Source: a virus
Taxonomy: Duplodnaviria; Heunggongvirae; Uroviricota; Caudoviricetes
DNA length: 38,733 nucleotides
IMG/VR virus record: IMGVR_UViG_2698536454_000017
Direction: 5' to 3' (one strand)
Shown here: piece by piece, positions 2,900 through 15,548 of the stretch
Layout: every line of letters starts with the position of its first letter
Position numbering within the stretch: position 1 is the first letter of the stretch
Notes under the pieces: generated by a model
What the model was told of the DNA's origin: nothing
The model's database searches: none
The model's input: only the letters and a program-made list of their open reading frames with translations
Made by a program: the position numbers and the translations under genes

Positions 2900-4200
2900 G
2901 CATTCCTTCGCGGTCGCCATTATGGCGATACCAGAGAGCTTTCTGCGTGTACATGCGTCTCTGTAACTTGCTCTCCTTCACTGTGGTTGCAAGTGACATG
3001 CATATCTCCTTCGTTACCGATTAATTCTTTCATCTGACGAATGAATTCTTTGTCTGACCAGTTATCTTTGACATCCTCCACGCCCTAAAGGGCGTGGATT
3101 CCTCCTTCGAGACGGCGATGTCCCGCCGCGAGAATGTTCTTTGCCGCGTTTACGTCGCGGTCGTGGAGTTCACCACATTCCACGCAGATCCATTCTCTTA
3201 TTCCAAGGCCTACCCTACCCTTCGGACTACTGCAGCTAATAGCTCCGCAGCACGAGCAAGTCTGGGTGGTGTACGCTTCATCTACGACCTCAAAAACCAC
3301 ACTCCGCGCAATCGCTTTATACTGAATCTGATTTTTTAGCTGACACCAGCCGGCGTCGTAGATACTTTTTGCCAAATTTGTTTTTGATAACTTTTTACTG
3401 CTTACGTCGCCTACAAAAATAGCGGCGTATTTATTAACCAGCGCCGTAGAAAACTTATGGTGTGCATCTTTACGGCGATTTTTGATTTTTGCGTGGATAG
3501 CTCTAACACGTTTTTTATTATGGGCACGTTGAGCAATTTTTAATTTGCCTTCTAATTCACGATACCAACGTTTAGCAGGAAGTTTTTCACCATCCGAAGT
3601 GGTGGCAATGTCTTTCAGACCAAGATCGATACCCACGTCGGCAGTGCCTTTAGTTGGTTCGCATTCGTATTCAACTGCAACATTGAAATACCAGCGACCG
3701 CGCGCATCTTCTGCAAAGTTACCAGCACGGAATTTAAAGCCATTTAATCCATAGCTATCCCACACTTTGAAATAGTGCCCGGCAAACTTGATGCAGCCGT
3801 TTACCCATTTCACTTGAGCACCTTTGAACGGAACCCAACCAAGACTACGCCCAGCACCGCCACTTTTACGCCAGCGCAGCTTACTGCGTTTAAACTGTTT
3901 ACGCGCTTTAGCGTGATGTTTTGAGATTTCCTGACAAGTAGCTGCTTGTATGTGGTATCCGCGCTCCTTTTGAATACCAGCAATGCGTTTATCTACGTCA
4001 AATTCAGTTAACCAAACTCTTTGTTTTGGTCCGTATTCGCTGACAGTGCTGTATTCAGTCGCAGTCATTTCATTGATAAAGTTAAAAACTTGGTTCACTT
4101 CAAAGGCCATCTGACGCAACAAGGCGGCGTGGCGGTCTTTGACGCGTACCTGCAATGTTTTAGTCTGAATAGCCATTTACTTGCTCCCCTTATTGGTAAA
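2900..4200 (-). mobile_element. IS200/IS605-family insertion element carrying tnpB only (IS1341-like); ends approximate
   Basis: Intact tnpB with no Y1 HUH transposase nearby; perfect hairpin at tnpB stop; located in intergenic position upstream of erf; exact left and right ends not determinable without comparison. Confidence 0.5.
3085..4176 (-). CDS. tnpB: TnpB (IS605 OrfB-family RuvC-like RNA-guided endonuclease), 363 aa
   Basis: Motifs GIDLGLKDIATTSDGEKL (RuvC-I), TTQTCSCCG...CVECG zinc finger, HDRDVNAAKNIL (RuvC-III); GGGGAG SD 7 nt before ATG 4176. Confidence 0.85.
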   Translation of the reverse strand: MAIQTKTLQVRVKDRHAALLRQMAFEVNQVFNFINEMTATEYSTVSEYGPKQRVWLTEFDVDKRIAGIQKERGYHIQAATCQEISKHHAKARKQFKRSKLRWRKSGGAGRSLGWVPFKGAQVKWVNGCIKFAGHYFKVWDSYGLNGFKFRAGNFAEDARGRWYFNVAVEYECEPTKGTADVGIDLGLKDIATTSDGEKLPAKRWYRELEGKLKIAQRAHNKKRVRAIHAKIKNRRKDAHHKFSTALVNKYAAIFVGDVSSKKLSKTNLAKSIYDAGWCQLKNQIQYKAIARSVVFEVVDEAYTTQTCSCCGAISCSSPKGRVGLGIREWICVECGELHDRDVNAAKNILAAGHRRLEGGIHAL

Positions 4201-5173: not shown

Positions 5174-5446
5174 TTACCTCGCCGTCAGTTGTTTTGATTT
5201 CCGGTAGCCTGCCGCGTAAATGGCTACGTTTGGCAGGCAAATACTTCCACTGCATTCATCTGCCTTCTTGCAGCGAAGGCTTCCGAGTGATGCTGCTTTG
5301 TCTGCTCTGACGCAACCAGAGAGCTTTAGCGCAATTTTTCGCGCCAGTCGCTGTTCTTGCATTGCCTGTTCACGTTGAGCCTGTCTGCGTGCTCTGCGGC
5401 GATTTCTGGCGTTATCGTCAGCCAGATATGTAATGACTACTGTCAT
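5174..5446 (-). CDS. N: N-like transcription antitermination protein (90 aa)
   Basis: N-terminal arginine-rich motif DNARNRRRARRQAQREQ typical of lambdoid N proteins; GGAGGT SD; nutL upstream and nutR after cro. Confidence 0.7.
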   Translation of the reverse strand: MTVVITYLADDNARNRRRARRQAQREQAMQEQRLARKIALKLSGCVRADKAASLGSLRCKKADECSGSICLPNVAIYAAGYRKSKQLTAR

Positions 5447-5889
5447 GTTGACCTCCGATGATTGACTTTGGTGATTGGATGGCCGGTGCTGAATTCCGGC
5501 TTACTGGTTAGAGCGCCCGCACTACCAGTGACGCTGTCTTGAGGCGCAGATTGGTTACTGCTTGCCATGAGCGCTGTTTATACATTGGTCGAGCATCAGC
5601 CTGCTCATTCATCCAATCCCAAAGCCAACTACTCTTTGACTCACACTCTCGCAGTGAGCGCGCTCATGCCCTTGAGTCTCTGCCGCTTCATCGCCGCTGA
5701 TAACCGGTGCGCGTCTGGCATTCGCGCTGCTTTACCGGAGCTACTTTTAATATATTGACCCTAACCCGATGCTAAGCAGGCTCGCTCAATGGCGACTCAG
5801 GGCAGCATCATTACTGCTGCATTTCCTTTCGGCTGCGGTCTAACCGCGTTAGTGCACCATTACGGCACCTCCTGTTTGGTTAAACTCAG

Positions 5890-5932
5890 TTCCCGCATTT
5901 CGGCGGGACAATCCCATCAATGTTAAAGAGCC
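5890..5932 (-). promoter_or_regulatory. nutL (boxA + boxB) on the leftward transcript
   Basis: Minus-strand GCTCTTTAACA (boxA) then 11 nt then TCCCGC-CGAAAT-GCGGGA hairpin, same loop and stem as the nutR boxB at 7585-7606. Confidence 0.55.
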
Positions 5933-5977
5933 TGCCAATCTGTTCCGTTTGGCTTCCAGCGTCCTGCTGATGGCTAA

Positions 5978-6006
5978 AGAATACTGTAGGTATTTTATTG
6001 TGTAAA
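5978..6006 (-). promoter_or_regulatory. PL-like promoter (minus strand -35 TTTACA, 17-bp spacer, -10 TATTCT)
   Basis: Hexamers read on minus strand; overlapped by operator sites at 5980-5994 and 6005-6019; about 40 nt upstream of nutL boxA. Confidence 0.5.
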
Positions 6007-6064
6007 TACCCAAGGTATTTATTTTTGATGAAATAATGATAAGCAAATGAATACAAAGGATATT
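5980..6064. promoter_or_regulatory. OL operator cluster: three 15-bp sites AATAC-N5-GTATT (third imperfect)
   Basis: 5980-5994 AATACtgtagGTATT; 6005-6019 AATACccaagGTATT; 6050-6064 AATACaaaggATATT. Confidence 0.5.
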
Positions 6065-6150
6065 TATTTTTTCGGTGTCTGCTTGTTCAGTGCTTTTTAT
6101 GCGGGATATGTGAAGTGGATCCCGATAGCTATTGCTGCCGGGATTATAGG

Positions 6151-6519
6151 TTAGTCAGCGAAGGTTAAGACGAGAATTACCTTAATGATATCTGCTACAA
6201 CAGACACGGCCATAGATAAACCAAAGACAATCCAAGCCATAGAGATGTCTTCACTACCATCGTATAGAGTTCCGTAATCACTGGTGTAAGGCGTAAATGT
6301 CGCGCCTTGATACAACAGGTATAAGCTTGAACCATAGAGGATAAATGCAGATATCCCTTGTATTGCTATGATCACTAGAATCATGAAACGAGCTGATCTA
6401 TGCGCCCAAGCCTGGCTTATTTTTTCTGATAGAGATTTCGCAATAAAAGCATGCGCTAAGCCGTAAATTGTCGAGATTGCCAACATCCCAAAAAAGCTTG
6501 CTATAGCGGTTCCAACCAT
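6151..6519 (-). CDS. small multi-pass membrane protein (122 aa) co-transcribed downstream of cI (rexB-like position)
   Basis: ATG 6519..6517 with AAGGGG SD, 18 bp after cI stop; three to four hydrophobic segments (e.g. FMILVIIAIQGISAFILYG, MAWIVFGLSMAVSVVADIIKVILVL). Confidence 0.6.
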   Translation of the reverse strand: MVGTAIASFFGMLAISTIYGLAHAFIAKSLSEKISQAWAHRSARFMILVIIAIQGISAFILYGSSLYLLYQGATFTPYTSDYGTLYDGSEDISMAWIVFGLSMAVSVVADIIKVILVLTFAD

Positions 6520-6536
6520 AATCGCCCCTTGCGTGA

Positions 6537-7253
6537 TCAAACCAGCCTTAGTTTTGTCTCAATTGCAACGCCTATAATCTTGCAGTTTCCATTGATTGGC
6601 ACGAGAGGCCATGCAGGATTAAGTCCCTTGAGGTATTTATTTCCGCCGTCGATTATCAGCTTCTTGAATGTTGCTTCGTTAGAGTCAGAAAGTTTTGCTA
6701 TGACCAAGCTGCCGTTGATCGCCTCCCTTCCGGTATCGAAAAGAACGAATGTTCCCTCTGGAATGCTTAACCCAACCGGTGCCGTCATTGAATCACCTTC
6801 CACTTTAAGCCAGAACGCATTACCTTGAATATGCGCGTCAGACTCAAGCCAAACATCTATGTCTTTAATGGTGTATGGTTCGCATGCTTCACACCACGAG
6901 CCAGCCTGGATACTGCTTAACACCGGATACCTCTTTCCTGCTCTGTATTCCCCTGCATACCTTACGTTGGCATCGCTCTTAAGGCTTTCTGCCTGTTCTG
7001 CAACCTTGGCAGCAATTGACTGGCTAAAATCAGCAATTGAGACTTGCAACAATCGTGCAAAACCAGATGCAACCTCAACGTTTAGCGCATTTCTGCCATT
7101 AAGATAATGCCCTACCGCTCCTTGGGTGATACCCAGTTCATCAGCGATTGAGTATTGGGTTATTCCCAATTCTTTCTTTTTTGACTCATACAAAGCCTTA
7201 AGCCGCTTAGCGTCTTCCAGCTGTTCTGTCGTCAGTGATTTTTTATTTTCCAT
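6537..7253 (-). CDS. cI: CI-type prophage repressor (HTH + S24/LexA-like autocleavage domain), 238 aa
   Basis: Strong resemblance to lambda CI (LTTEQLEDAKRLKALYESKKKELG..., FWLKVEGDSMTAP..., FKKLIIDGG); no SD before ATG 7253, consistent with a leaderless PRM transcript. Confidence 0.9.
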   Translation of the reverse strand: MENKKSLTTEQLEDAKRLKALYESKKKELGITQYSIADELGITQGAVGHYLNGRNALNVEVASGFARLLQVSIADFSQSIAAKVAEQAESLKSDANVRYAGEYRAGKRYPVLSSIQAGSWCEACEPYTIKDIDVWLESDAHIQGNAFWLKVEGDSMTAPVGLSIPEGTFVLFDTGREAINGSLVIAKLSDSNEATFKKLIIDGGNKYLKGLNPAWPLVPINGNCKIIGVAIETKLRLV

Positions 7254-7288
7254 AGCTTAATTCTAATAGCTAAGGTACTTAAACTAAA

Positions 7289-7328
7289 AATACCCTGAGT
7301 ATTGATTGCTTTGAATACCTGTAGTATT
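7289..7328. promoter_or_regulatory. OR operator sites (two clear 15-bp palindromes AATAC-N5-GTATT)
   Basis: 7289-7303 AATACcctgaGTATT; 7314-7328 AATACctgtaGTATT; same half-sites as OL. Confidence 0.5.
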
Positions 7329-7330
7329 CT
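7302..7330 (+). promoter_or_regulatory. PR-like promoter (-35 TTGATT 7302-7307, -10 TATTCT 7325-7330)
   Basis: 17-bp spacing; overlaps both OR sites; about 30 nt upstream of cro SD. Confidence 0.45.
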
Positions 7331-7359
7331 TTGTTCATGGTTAATAACGGAGAGTGCAT

Positions 7360-7554
7360 ATGATTCGAATGACACTTGCCGATTACGCCAAAATCCATGG
7401 ACAGGCTAAAGCAGCCAGTGACTTTGGTGTAATCCAGTGCGCTATCAGCAAGGCCATTCTGGCAGGCCGTAACATCATGGTTACGGTAAAGCCTGATGGC
7501 AGTGTGATTGGAGAGGAAGTTCGTCCTTTCCCAAGCAACAAGAAAAACAAATAG
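7360..7554 (+). CDS. cro: Cro repressor (64 aa)
   Basis: [24 protein letters not shown]...[10 protein letters not shown] resembles lambda Cro; GGAG SD 7 nt before ATG 7360 (track start 7354 is GTG). Confidence 0.8.
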
Positions 7555-15392: not shown

Positions 15393-15467
15393 GGGTCAGT
15401 CGTATAAAGGTCATTACGGAATGCTGTTAACCTTCTTATCGTGGTTCGAGTCCACGCTGTCCCGCCA
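15393..15467 (+). tRNA. tRNA-Asn-like (anticodon GUU), divergent
   Basis: Hand-folded cloverleaf: T-arm CGTGG-TTCGAGT-CCACG, anticodon loop CTGTTAA, 3-prime CCA encoded; one mismatch each in acceptor and anticodon stems, so possibly a pseudo-tRNA. Confidence 0.45.
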
Positions 15468-15472
15468 AACAT

Positions 15473-15548
15473 GCTGGTTTAGCTCCAATGGTAGAGCAGT
15501 CGCCTTGTAAGCGAATGGGTAGCGGTTCAAGTCCGTTAACCAGCACCA
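15473..15548 (+). tRNA. tRNA-Thr (anticodon UGU)
   Basis: Hand-folded: acceptor GCTGGTT/AACCAGC, D-arm GCTC-CAATGGTA-GAGC, anticodon loop CTTGTAA, T-arm AGCGG-TTCAAGT-CCGTT, CCA encoded. Confidence 0.6.

What the first reader, a model, noticed from the sequence alone, without database searches (positions are those of the whole stretch)
6151..6519. Small multi-pass membrane protein co-transcribed with cI (rexB-like position): candidate superinfection-exclusion or abortive-infection factor
The gene starts 18 bp after the cI stop on the same strand with its own strong SD and encodes a 122-aa protein with three to four TM helices. In lambda the same position holds rexA/rexB, and lysogen-expressed exclusion genes typically sit there. 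It has no recognisable partner and I do not recognise the family.
Basis: inference. Interest (0 to 1): 0.6.

Follow-up and report, generated by a model that had tools for sequence, protein, structure and literature searches.

The report
Small membrane protein behind phage repressor
This is a real, conserved gene (hkaS of coliphage HK620) for a small three-helix inner-membrane protein that always sits just after one type of prophage repressor gene. It has no detectable relatives of known function, so a role in excluding other phages is plausible but untested.

Summary
On the minus strand at 6151..6519, an ATG with an AAGGGG ribosome-binding site lies 17 nt after the cI stop. It opens a 122-aa ORF with three transmembrane helices, predicted N-terminus out and C-terminus in. 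The gene is hkaS of phage HK620, annotated "unknown" in 2001 and filed as PHROG 6534 (unknown function).

It is a true orphan. Pfam, NCBIfam and PADLOC gave nothing above threshold. An exhaustive HMMER search of 1.84 billion representatives found only the family itself, plus one 44-aa sequence matching its first 33 positions. Fold searches gave nothing specific. Profile comparison shows no relation to lambda RexB or P22 SieA.

In every context I read (9 metagenome or genome contigs and 79 viral contigs) it directly follows an HK620-type cI. In 16 phage records and 146 E. coli genomes the two genes occur in equal numbers. It lies inside the immunity cassette (OR-cI-hkaS-hairpin-OL/pL), while the flanking genes vary.

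It is under purifying selection (omega about 0.12), yet its protein sequence changes 4-5 times faster than cI. The periplasmic loop varies most. The cytoplasmic loop and the C-terminal end of TM3 vary least.

The best reading, an inference, is a lysogen-expressed inner-membrane factor that blocks genome entry of heteroimmune phages. A stand-alone abortive-infection effector or a non-defence role cannot be excluded. No experiment or paper addresses it. Interest is moderate to low.

The parts
6151..6519 (-). hkaS: 122-aa protein with three transmembrane helices (the finding)
   Evidence: ORF and translation. 97.5-99% identical to HK620 hkaS and its homologues. phrog_6534. AF2 model pLDDT 92. dN/dS 0.12.
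6525..6530 (-). Shine-Dalgarno AAGGGG, 5 nt before the hkaS ATG, inside the 17-nt cI-hkaS spacer (6520-6536)
   Evidence: Read from the sequence. AAGGA lies at the equivalent place in the Salmonella, Hafnia and L007 lineages.
6537..7253 (-). cI repressor (238 aa, HTH_3 plus Peptidase_S24), HK620 immunity type
   Evidence: Pfam. 99.6-100% identical to cI of HK620, mEpX2, HK630 and others. HK620 annotation.
7261..7266 (-). Candidate pRM -10 hexamer TAGAAT; transcription would start at or next to the cI ATG (leaderless, as in lambda)
   Evidence: Read from the sequence. Inference by analogy with lambda pRM. The simple promoter scan did not report it.
7264..7329 (.). OR3, OR2 and OR1 operators (7264-7280, 7288-7304, 7313-7329)
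   Evidence: Transferred from the HK620 annotation by coordinate offset. Operator palindromes are visible.
6119..6144 (-). Stem-loop 7 nt after the hkaS stop; likely 3'-end or terminator element of the cI-hkaS transcript (no U-tract)
   Evidence: Folds at -13.7 kcal/mol, z -2.1. A hairpin of different sequence occupies the same position in the Salmonella, L007 and Hafnia lineages.
6049..6065 (-). Operator-like 17-mer AAATATCCTTTGTATTC, the site nearest hkaS (probably the true OL3)
   Evidence: Conserved at this position in all four lineages. HK620 annotates this stretch as tIMM and places OL3 at the equivalent of 6026-6042.
5978..6020 (-). OL1 (5979-5995), OL2 (6004-6020) and pL (TTTACA-17-TATTCT, 6006..5978)
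   Evidence: Promoter scan. HK620 annotation.

Best explanation
hkaS encodes a small inner-membrane protein made in the lysogen as the second gene of the repressor transcript (pRM or pRE, then cI, then hkaS, then a hairpin). Its topology is N-terminus periplasmic, TM1, a positively charged cytoplasmic loop, TM2, an acidic aromatic-rich periplasmic loop, TM3, C-terminus cytoplasmic. Its most likely job is superinfection exclusion at the cytoplasmic membrane. In this reading it interferes with the channel or host component through which heteroimmune phages deliver DNA. It would add a membrane-level barrier to the repressor's homo-immunity, as P22 SieA and T4 Imm do, but with an unrelated protein.

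Shown: the gene, its membrane character, its operon position, its strict linkage to one cI lineage, purifying selection, and its orphan status.

Inferred: expression in lysogens, the topology, and the whole functional assignment.
For: Architecture. There is a 17-nt gap after cI with a conserved SD, no terminator-like site between the genes, and pL beyond. A position-conserved, sequence-divergent hairpin follows the stop.

Linkage. The gene follows an HK620-type cI in 9 of 9 contigs from four diverged lineages. In 79 of the 80 viral contigs a cI match lies 17-19 nt from hkaS; the 80th starts at hkaS. The 16 phage records with hkaS are the same 16 whose cI is at least 99% identical. In E. coli both genes match 146 genomes and 147 places; the genome lists were not cross-checked.

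Membrane protein. Three hydrophobic helices are seen. Loop 28-44 holds K28, K33, R41 and R44. Loop 74-92 holds only acidic residues.

Selection. omega is 0.12. dN is 0.33-0.44 against 0.07-0.09 for cI. The periplasmic loop is the most variable segment, at 30-50% identity between distant lineages. This fits a surface that meets changing phage proteins.

Slot. The same slot carries known exclusion or abortive-infection genes in other lambdoid phages: rexAB in lambda, and bstA in BTP1, where the cI-N interval is described as a hotspot (PMC8585504).

Precedent. Single small inner-membrane proteins that act alone are the usual form of injection blockers, for example P22 SieA (PMC10883804; review PMC11436027). 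There is no enzymatic domain and no partner gene.
Against: No experiment and no paper addresses the gene. It has no similarity to any known exclusion protein. hhalign probability is 0.3% against SieA and 0.7% against RexB. PADLOC gave no hit.

The best-conserved parts are the cytoplasmic loop and the cytoplasmic end of TM3, including the invariant D110 and K113. These are not the periplasmic face, where an incoming phage's ejection proteins would first be met.

The fast evolution and variable loop could simply reflect weak constraint on a small membrane protein.

The linkage to cI can be explained by physical trapping between cI and OL. The same cassette rides in podoviruses, siphoviruses and Stx phages, so the phage types it would act against cannot be guessed.
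Confidence: 0.4

Rival explanations
1. Stand-alone abortive-infection effector. HkaS oligomerises into an ion-conducting pore that is triggered by infection and collapses membrane potential. This would be RexB-like in effect but without a RexA-type sensor.
For: It occupies the same operon slot as rexB. Polar or charged residues inside the helices are invariant (Q54, S65, Y67, Y70, S106, D110, K113), as expected for a pore lining or an oligomer interface. The conserved face is cytoplasmic, where a trigger from a replicating phage could be sensed.
Against: hhalign probability against RexB is 0.7%. HkaS has 3 predicted helices, whereas hydropathy suggests about 4 or more hydrophobic segments in RexB. 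There is no sensor partner. Known membrane abortive-infection effectors nearly always depend on a separate sensor (established knowledge). Constitutive expression of a pore-former from the strongest lysogenic promoter would be risky for the host.
Confidence: 0.2
2. A non-defence function. HkaS could be a lysogenic-conversion or lysogeny-tuning membrane factor. It might act on a conserved host inner-membrane component, for example a protease such as FtsH/HflKC that controls CII, or a transporter. It might also be an orphan immunity protein against a pore-forming colicin or microcin.
For: The most conserved surface is cytoplasmic (9 of 17 loop residues and 9 of the last 13 residues are invariant). 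That suggests a conserved partner rather than a fast-evolving phage target. The gene would also be transcribed from pRE during establishment of lysogeny (architecture). Size and the 3-TM layout resemble E1-type colicin immunity proteins (from memory, not tested by structure). Cargo in this slot in related phages is not always defence-like. Phage 434 carries a 134-aa protein with a hydrophobic N-terminus that looks like a signal sequence, and Erwinia phage 49 carries a soluble 200-aa protein.
Against: No Pfam, NCBIfam or PHROG match to any such family at E up to 1-10. No bacteriocin gene is nearby. Nothing points to a specific host partner.
Confidence: 0.25
3. A passenger with little or no current function, kept only because it is trapped between cI and OL inside the immunity cassette.
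For: The cro-cI-hkaS-OL block moves as one unit while the flanks vary. In 80 viral contigs the window-type N is present in 33, the window-type O in 5 and the 250-bp insert in 8. The family is tiny and confined to one cI lineage. A related cI (Serratia phage OS31) has no annotated gene immediately after it.
Against: omega is 0.12, with synonymous sites saturated between lineages while length, SD and 43 invariant residues are retained. All 146 E. coli genomes have a match covering at least 80% of the gene. Three frameshifted variants do exist among the 12 clusters in the metagenomic collection.
Confidence: 0.1

Closest known systems
Lambda RexB (with RexA), the immunity-operon abortive-infection system
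   Same: Identical genomic position: downstream of cI on the same strand, before OL/pL and N. It is also a small polytopic inner-membrane protein and presumably shares the repressor's promoters.
   Different: No sequence relation (hhalign probability 0.7%). HkaS is 122 aa with 3 TM helices, whereas RexB is 144 aa with more hydrophobic segments. There is no RexA-like partner gene.
P22 SieA (inner-membrane superinfection-exclusion protein that blocks DNA delivery)
   Same: A single small polytopic inner-membrane protein expressed from a P22-like prophage and acting alone (PMC10883804). This is the functional model I favour.
   Different: No sequence relation (hhalign probability 0.3%). SieA is 164 aa and is encoded in the immI region next to gene 16 with its own promoter, not in the cI operon.
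BstA of Salmonella prophage BTP1 and other cargo of the cI-N hotspot
   Same: Same slot, directly downstream of cI in a P22-like prophage. BstA is highly expressed in lysogens and followed by a terminator hairpin (PMC8585504).
   Different: BstA is not described as a membrane protein; it localises to sites of phage DNA replication and has a self-immunity element (aba). HkaS is a membrane protein and gave no PADLOC match.
HK620 hkaS / PHROG 6534 (the family itself)
   Same: 97.5% protein identity to HK620 HkaS. Full-length match to phrog_6534 (E 2.9e-79).
   Different: Nothing. This is the same gene, annotated 'unknown' since 2001.

Membership tests
HkaS / phrog_6534 (orphan family of unknown function) | Full-length sequence match to the family profile and to HK620 HkaS | tested here: met
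   phrog_6534 E 2.9e-79 over residues 1-122 of 122. tblastn identity 97.5-99.2% to hkaS of HK620, HK630, mEpX2 and HK140.
HkaS / phrog_6534 (orphan family of unknown function) | Position immediately downstream of an HK620-type cI | tested here: met
   17-nt gap in the window. 17-20 nt gaps in L003-L011. 17-19 nt gaps in 79 of 79 viral contigs with upstream sequence.
RexB (lambda Rex system) | Sequence homology to RexB | tested here: not met
   hhalign of the HkaS profile against lambda RexB: probability 0.7%, 20 aligned columns. No RexB-related Pfam or PHROG hit at E up to 1.
RexB (lambda Rex system) | Adjacent rexA-like sensor gene | tested here: not met
   Nothing lies between cI and hkaS. 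After hkaS come only a hairpin, OL/pL and N in all loci.
RexB (lambda Rex system) | Location in the immunity operon downstream of cI | tested here: met
RexB (lambda Rex system) | Infection-triggered loss of membrane potential | not testable with these tools
   Needs infection assays with a membrane-potential dye.
SieA-type inner-membrane exclusion proteins | Sequence homology to a SieA type | tested here: not met
   hhalign against P22 SieA: probability 0.3%. Only the P22 type was tested. The paper describes three SieA types less than 30% identical to each other.
SieA-type inner-membrane exclusion proteins | Small polytopic inner-membrane protein expressed from the prophage, sufficient alone | tested here: inconclusive
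   Membrane character is met. Expression is inferred from operon structure. Sufficiency is untested.
SieA-type inner-membrane exclusion proteins | Blocks DNA delivery of superinfecting phage; escape mutations map to ejection proteins | not testable with these tools
   Needs plating-efficiency, DNA-entry and escape-mutant experiments.
Known anti-phage defence systems (PADLOC-DB v2) | Match to any defence protein model | tested here: not met
   0 families at E up to 10.
Class I holins (3 TM, N-out/C-in) | Holin family match and a charged cytoplasmic C-terminal tail | tested here: not met
   No holin Pfam or PHROG hit. The protein ends one residue after TM3 (…LVLTFAD) with no tail. It lies in the immunity operon, not in a lysis cassette.
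Pore-forming colicin or microcin immunity proteins | Family match or an adjacent bacteriocin gene | tested here: not met
   No Pfam or NCBIfam hit. No toxin gene in the neighbourhood.
Moron (independent transcription unit) | Own promoter and terminator | tested here: inconclusive
   No promoter-like site on the minus strand between cI and hkaS. A hairpin follows the gene. It looks like an operon passenger rather than a classical moron.

The most novel reading that the evidence does not exclude
HkaS is a self-sufficient, previously unrecognised type of membrane defence protein. It would be a three-helix protein with an invariant intramembrane Asp110/Lys113 pair and a conserved cytoplasmic face. 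It would either sense infection and open an ion path on its own (a RexB-like outcome with no sensor subunit), or disable a conserved host inner-membrane component that many phages need for DNA entry. Either way it would define a new single-gene exclusion family hard-wired to a repressor lineage.
Probability: 0.15. Interest if true: 0.6.

Novelty: new member of a known kind. Interest (0 to 1): 0.35.

Why it matters
The interval between cI and N is transcribed from the most active prophage promoter and has already yielded RexAB and BstA. HkaS is carried by about 2.7% of complete E. coli genomes (146 of 5426), including Stx-converting phages. It also occurs in Salmonella, Enterobacter and Hafnia prophages. 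Its function has remained unknown since 2001.

If it excludes phages, it would be a new sequence family of single-gene membrane barriers. That would bear on phage-therapy host range and on competition among prophages, Stx phages included. Because it is a single gene of 369 bp, the test is cheap.

If it has no anti-phage role, that would be a useful counter-example to the habit of assuming that whatever sits after cI is a defence gene.

Tried and rejected
Family and homology searches:
- Pfam gave only sub-threshold hydrophobic matches: Cation_ATPase_C at 19.2 bits against a cut-off of 27.3, and TssN at 13.3 against 30.3. I rejected both as compositional.
- NCBIfam and PADLOC gave nothing.
- The word-indexed search of 5.8 billion proteins gave 12 clusters, all the same family.
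- The exhaustive profile HMMER search over 1.84 billion representatives gave only the family representative and one 44-aa sequence matching positions 1-33.

Fold searches:
- Foldseek against PDB and BFVD gave no hit with E at or below 0.001.
- AFDB50 was unavailable.

Other collections:
- The scan of GTDB species-representative genomes found no relative.
- IMG/VR returned 80 loci, all at least 98% identical, so they added no diversity.

Literature:
- 'hkaS' alone returns fungal herbarium codes.
- 'HK620' with 'hkaS' returned 0 papers.
- Papers on HK620, mEpX2 and superinfection exclusion do not mention the gene.
- 'repressor protection protein', the label on phage 434's gene in this slot, returned 0 papers.

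Rejected readings:
- Cleavable signal peptide: the A-H-A motif at residues 22-24 is absent in the other lineages, and it is followed by a positively charged segment.
- The 35-aa hydrophobic plus-strand ORF (6047..6154) as a partner or toxin: it starts inside an operator-like site, covers the hairpin, and is interrupted or absent in the Hafnia and Salmonella loci.
- The 250-bp insert as a multi-copy mobile element or structured RNA: see Noticed in passing.

Full report
WHAT IS THERE

The finding lies on the minus strand. The cI gene (6537..7253; HTH_3 plus Peptidase_S24) ends with TGA at 6537-6539. After 17 nt that contain AAGGGG (6525-6530), an ATG at 6519 opens a 122-codon ORF ending with TAA at 6151-6153. 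The ORF listing extends the ORF to a TTG at 6540. The ATG with its Shine-Dalgarno is the start shared by all diverged homologues, each of which has AAGGA 7-8 nt upstream.

Hydropathy shows three hydrophobic stretches, at about residues 1-27, 42-70 and 91-122. An AlphaFold2 model built on the family alignment has mean pLDDT 92.3. It shows helices 2-29, 41-73 and 89-121, a short helix 31-38 and a small beta-hairpin at 78-86.

All four Lys/Arg residues outside the helices lie in loop 28-44 (K28, K33, R41, R44). Loop 74-92 carries only acidic residues (D81, D87, E90, D91). By the positive-inside rule, the N-terminus and the second loop are periplasmic, and the first loop and the C-terminus are cytoplasmic. 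This topology is an inference. So the protein has three helices, not four.

IDENTITY

The 2-kb region is 99% identical to the immunity regions of HK620, HK630, HK140, mEpX2, HF4s, vB_EcoP-611R6 and two Stx2c phages. In the HK620 record the gene is hkaS, product 'unknown'. It lies between cI and an annotated tIMM, OL and pL. It matches PHROG 6534 (unknown function) end to end.

Every name given to it by any source is 'hypothetical protein'. I found no paper that mentions it.

AN ORPHAN FAMILY

- Pfam, NCBIfam and PADLOC gave no hit above threshold.
- A search of 5.8 billion clustered proteins found 12 clusters, from E. coli, Salmonella, Enterobacter, Hafnia and unassigned metagenome reads, down to 52% identity.
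- An exhaustive profile search of 1.84 billion 50%-identity representatives found only the family's own representative and one 44-aa sequence matching its first 33 positions.
- Direct profile comparison with lambda RexB and P22 SieA gave probabilities of 0.7% and 0.3%.

IS IT A REAL GENE?

ORF length alone is not evidence here. The comparative signal is. All lineages keep exactly 122 residues without indels, with 43 invariant positions. Between the window and the Hafnia-type copy, dN is 0.094, dS is 0.78 and omega is 0.12. Between the more distant lineages, synonymous sites are saturated (pS about 0.8) while the protein is still 52-61% identical.

All 146 complete E. coli genomes that carry the gene (of 5426) have a match covering at least 80% of it.

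CONTEXT AND LINKAGE

In nine contigs from four diverged lineages, the gene directly follows a 238-240-aa HTH_3/Peptidase_S24 repressor and precedes N. One of these repressors was called at 210 aa and two at 254 aa. These repressors are 81-95% identical to the window's cI, and the operators are of the same type. So the family is confined to one cI lineage.

- In the phage collection, the 16 records with a cI at least 99% identical are the same 16 records that have hkaS.
- In complete E. coli genomes, both genes match 146 genomes and 147 places. The two genome lists were not cross-checked.
- In 80 viral contigs, the cro-cI-hkaS-OL/nutL block is constant. The window-type N is present in 33, the window-type O in 5 and cII in 70.

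hkaS is therefore an internal part of the immunity cassette. That also means the linkage needs no functional explanation, because anything between cI and OL travels with the immunity specificity.

More distant cI relatives (51-71% identity) lack hkaS and carry different things in the slot:
- nothing annotated in Serratia phage OS31;
- a soluble 200-aa protein in Erwinia phage 49;
- a 134-aa protein with a hydrophobic N-terminus that looks like a signal sequence in phage 434 and phage Huey;
- rexA and rexB in lambda.

TRANSCRIPTION (INFERRED)

No terminator-like site lies between cI and hkaS. The only promoter-like site on that strand in 5400-7450 is pL, downstream of hkaS. Upstream of cI, a TAGAAT at 7261-7266 sits next to OR3 and OR2. 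It would start a leaderless cI message, as at lambda pRM.

Seven nucleotides after the hkaS stop is a stem-loop (6119-6144, -13.7 kcal/mol). The Salmonella, L007 and Hafnia lineages each have a hairpin of different sequence at the same place (z down to -5.0). None is followed by a U-tract. I read it as the 3'-end or termination element of the immunity transcript, perhaps helped by repressor bound at the operator-like site 6049-6065.

PATTERN OF EVOLUTION

HkaS changes 4-5 times faster than cI at the protein level (dN 0.33-0.44 against 0.07-0.09). Even within E. coli, hkaS is at least 99% identical to the window in only 21 of 146 genomes, against 144 of 146 for cI.

Between distant lineages the periplasmic loop (74-93) is the least conserved segment (30-50% identity). 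The cytoplasmic loop (28-44) is the most conserved (59-82%). The last 13 residues, which include the intramembrane D110 and K113, are 9 of 13 invariant.

HOW IT MOST LIKELY WORKS

The gene has no enzymatic domain and no partner. It encodes a small polytopic inner-membrane protein. It sits in the operon that is most strongly expressed in a lysogen. That slot is described in the literature as a hotspot holding rexAB and bstA (PMC8585504).

Stand-alone small inner-membrane proteins of prophages that have been characterised mostly block genome entry. Examples are P22 SieA (PMC10883804) and T4 Imm (review PMC11436027).

I therefore favour superinfection exclusion by interference with DNA passage across the cytoplasmic membrane (confidence 0.4). 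The variable periplasmic loop would be the face exposed to incoming phage proteins.

Three points weigh against this:
- the best-conserved face is cytoplasmic;
- there is no similarity to any known exclusion protein;
- there are no data.

The rivals are:
- a stand-alone RexB-like depolarising effector (0.2), supported by invariant polar residues within the helices but lacking any sensor;
- a non-defence membrane role such as tuning lysogeny or bacteriocin immunity (0.25);
- a near-neutral passenger (0.1), which the purifying selection argues against.

COMPARISON WITH THE KNOWN

HkaS resembles RexB in position only. Sequence homology and the RexA partner were both tested and not met, so it is not a RexB family member. 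It resembles SieA in kind (a small, solitary inner-membrane protein of a P22-like prophage), but not in sequence or location. It is a member of the hkaS/PHROG 6534 family, which has no assigned function.

VERDICT

The 'unrecognised family' is a catalogued gene, more than twenty years old, with no assigned function. The functional proposal remains an untested and reasonable guess. If it is confirmed, hkaS would be a new sequence family within a known kind of prophage defence. Interest is 0.35.

Noticed in passing
window 5639..5888: There is a 250-bp insertion relative to HK620 and vB_EcoP-611R6, placed on the pL transcript directly after the nutL boxB hairpin and before N. It is shared with two Stx2c phages and found in 54 of 5426 E. 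coli genomes, at most two copies per genome, in two sequence variants (at least 95% and about 88% identical to the window). In at least one of those genomes it lies next to hkaS. It has no Rfam match and no unusual folding energy (z -1.1). Its nature is unknown.
   Followed up: partly
window 6047..6154 (+): A 35-aa hydrophobic ORF (MNTKDIYFFGVCLFSAFYAGYVKWIPIAIAAGIIG) converges on hkaS and overlaps its stop codon. Its ATG lies inside an operator-like site and it spans the post-hkaS hairpin. It is not conserved in the Hafnia or Salmonella loci and has no family hit. It is probably spurious.
   Followed up: yes
window 6049..6065 versus 6026..6042: The 17-mer AAATATCCTTTGTATTC at 6049-6065 fits the OL1/OL2 operator pattern and is conserved in position in all four lineages. 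The HK620 record annotates that stretch as terminator tIMM and places OL3 at the equivalent of 6026-6042. The deposited OL3 and tIMM annotation may be misplaced.
   Followed up: partly
window 3085..4176 (-): A 363-aa TnpB-like ORF (OrfB_IS605 plus Cas12f1-like TNB domain) sits in the pL-operon side of the phage. This looks like an IS200/IS605-family insertion. No TnpA-like ORF was seen nearby. Element ends and any omega-RNA were not examined.
   Followed up: partly
window 15393..15464 and 15473..15545 (+): Two adjacent tRNA genes were detected by Rfam (45.9 and 61.5 bits). Their anticodons were not determined.
   Followed up: no
hkaS versus cI across E. coli genomes (window 6151..7253): Within E. 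coli, hkaS is noticeably more diverse than the adjacent cI. It is at least 99% identical to the window in 21 of 146 genomes, against 144 of 146 for cI. Recurrent small substitutions include F10L, I51M and S93T/M94V.
   Followed up: partly
L016 2109-2513 (phage 434) and L017 2109-2513 (phage Huey): The gene in the same slot after the 434-type cI encodes a 134-aa protein with a hydrophobic N-terminus that looks like a signal sequence. It is annotated 'repressor protection protein' in one record and 'PagP' in another. No paper uses the first name. These annotations look unreliable.
   Followed up: partly
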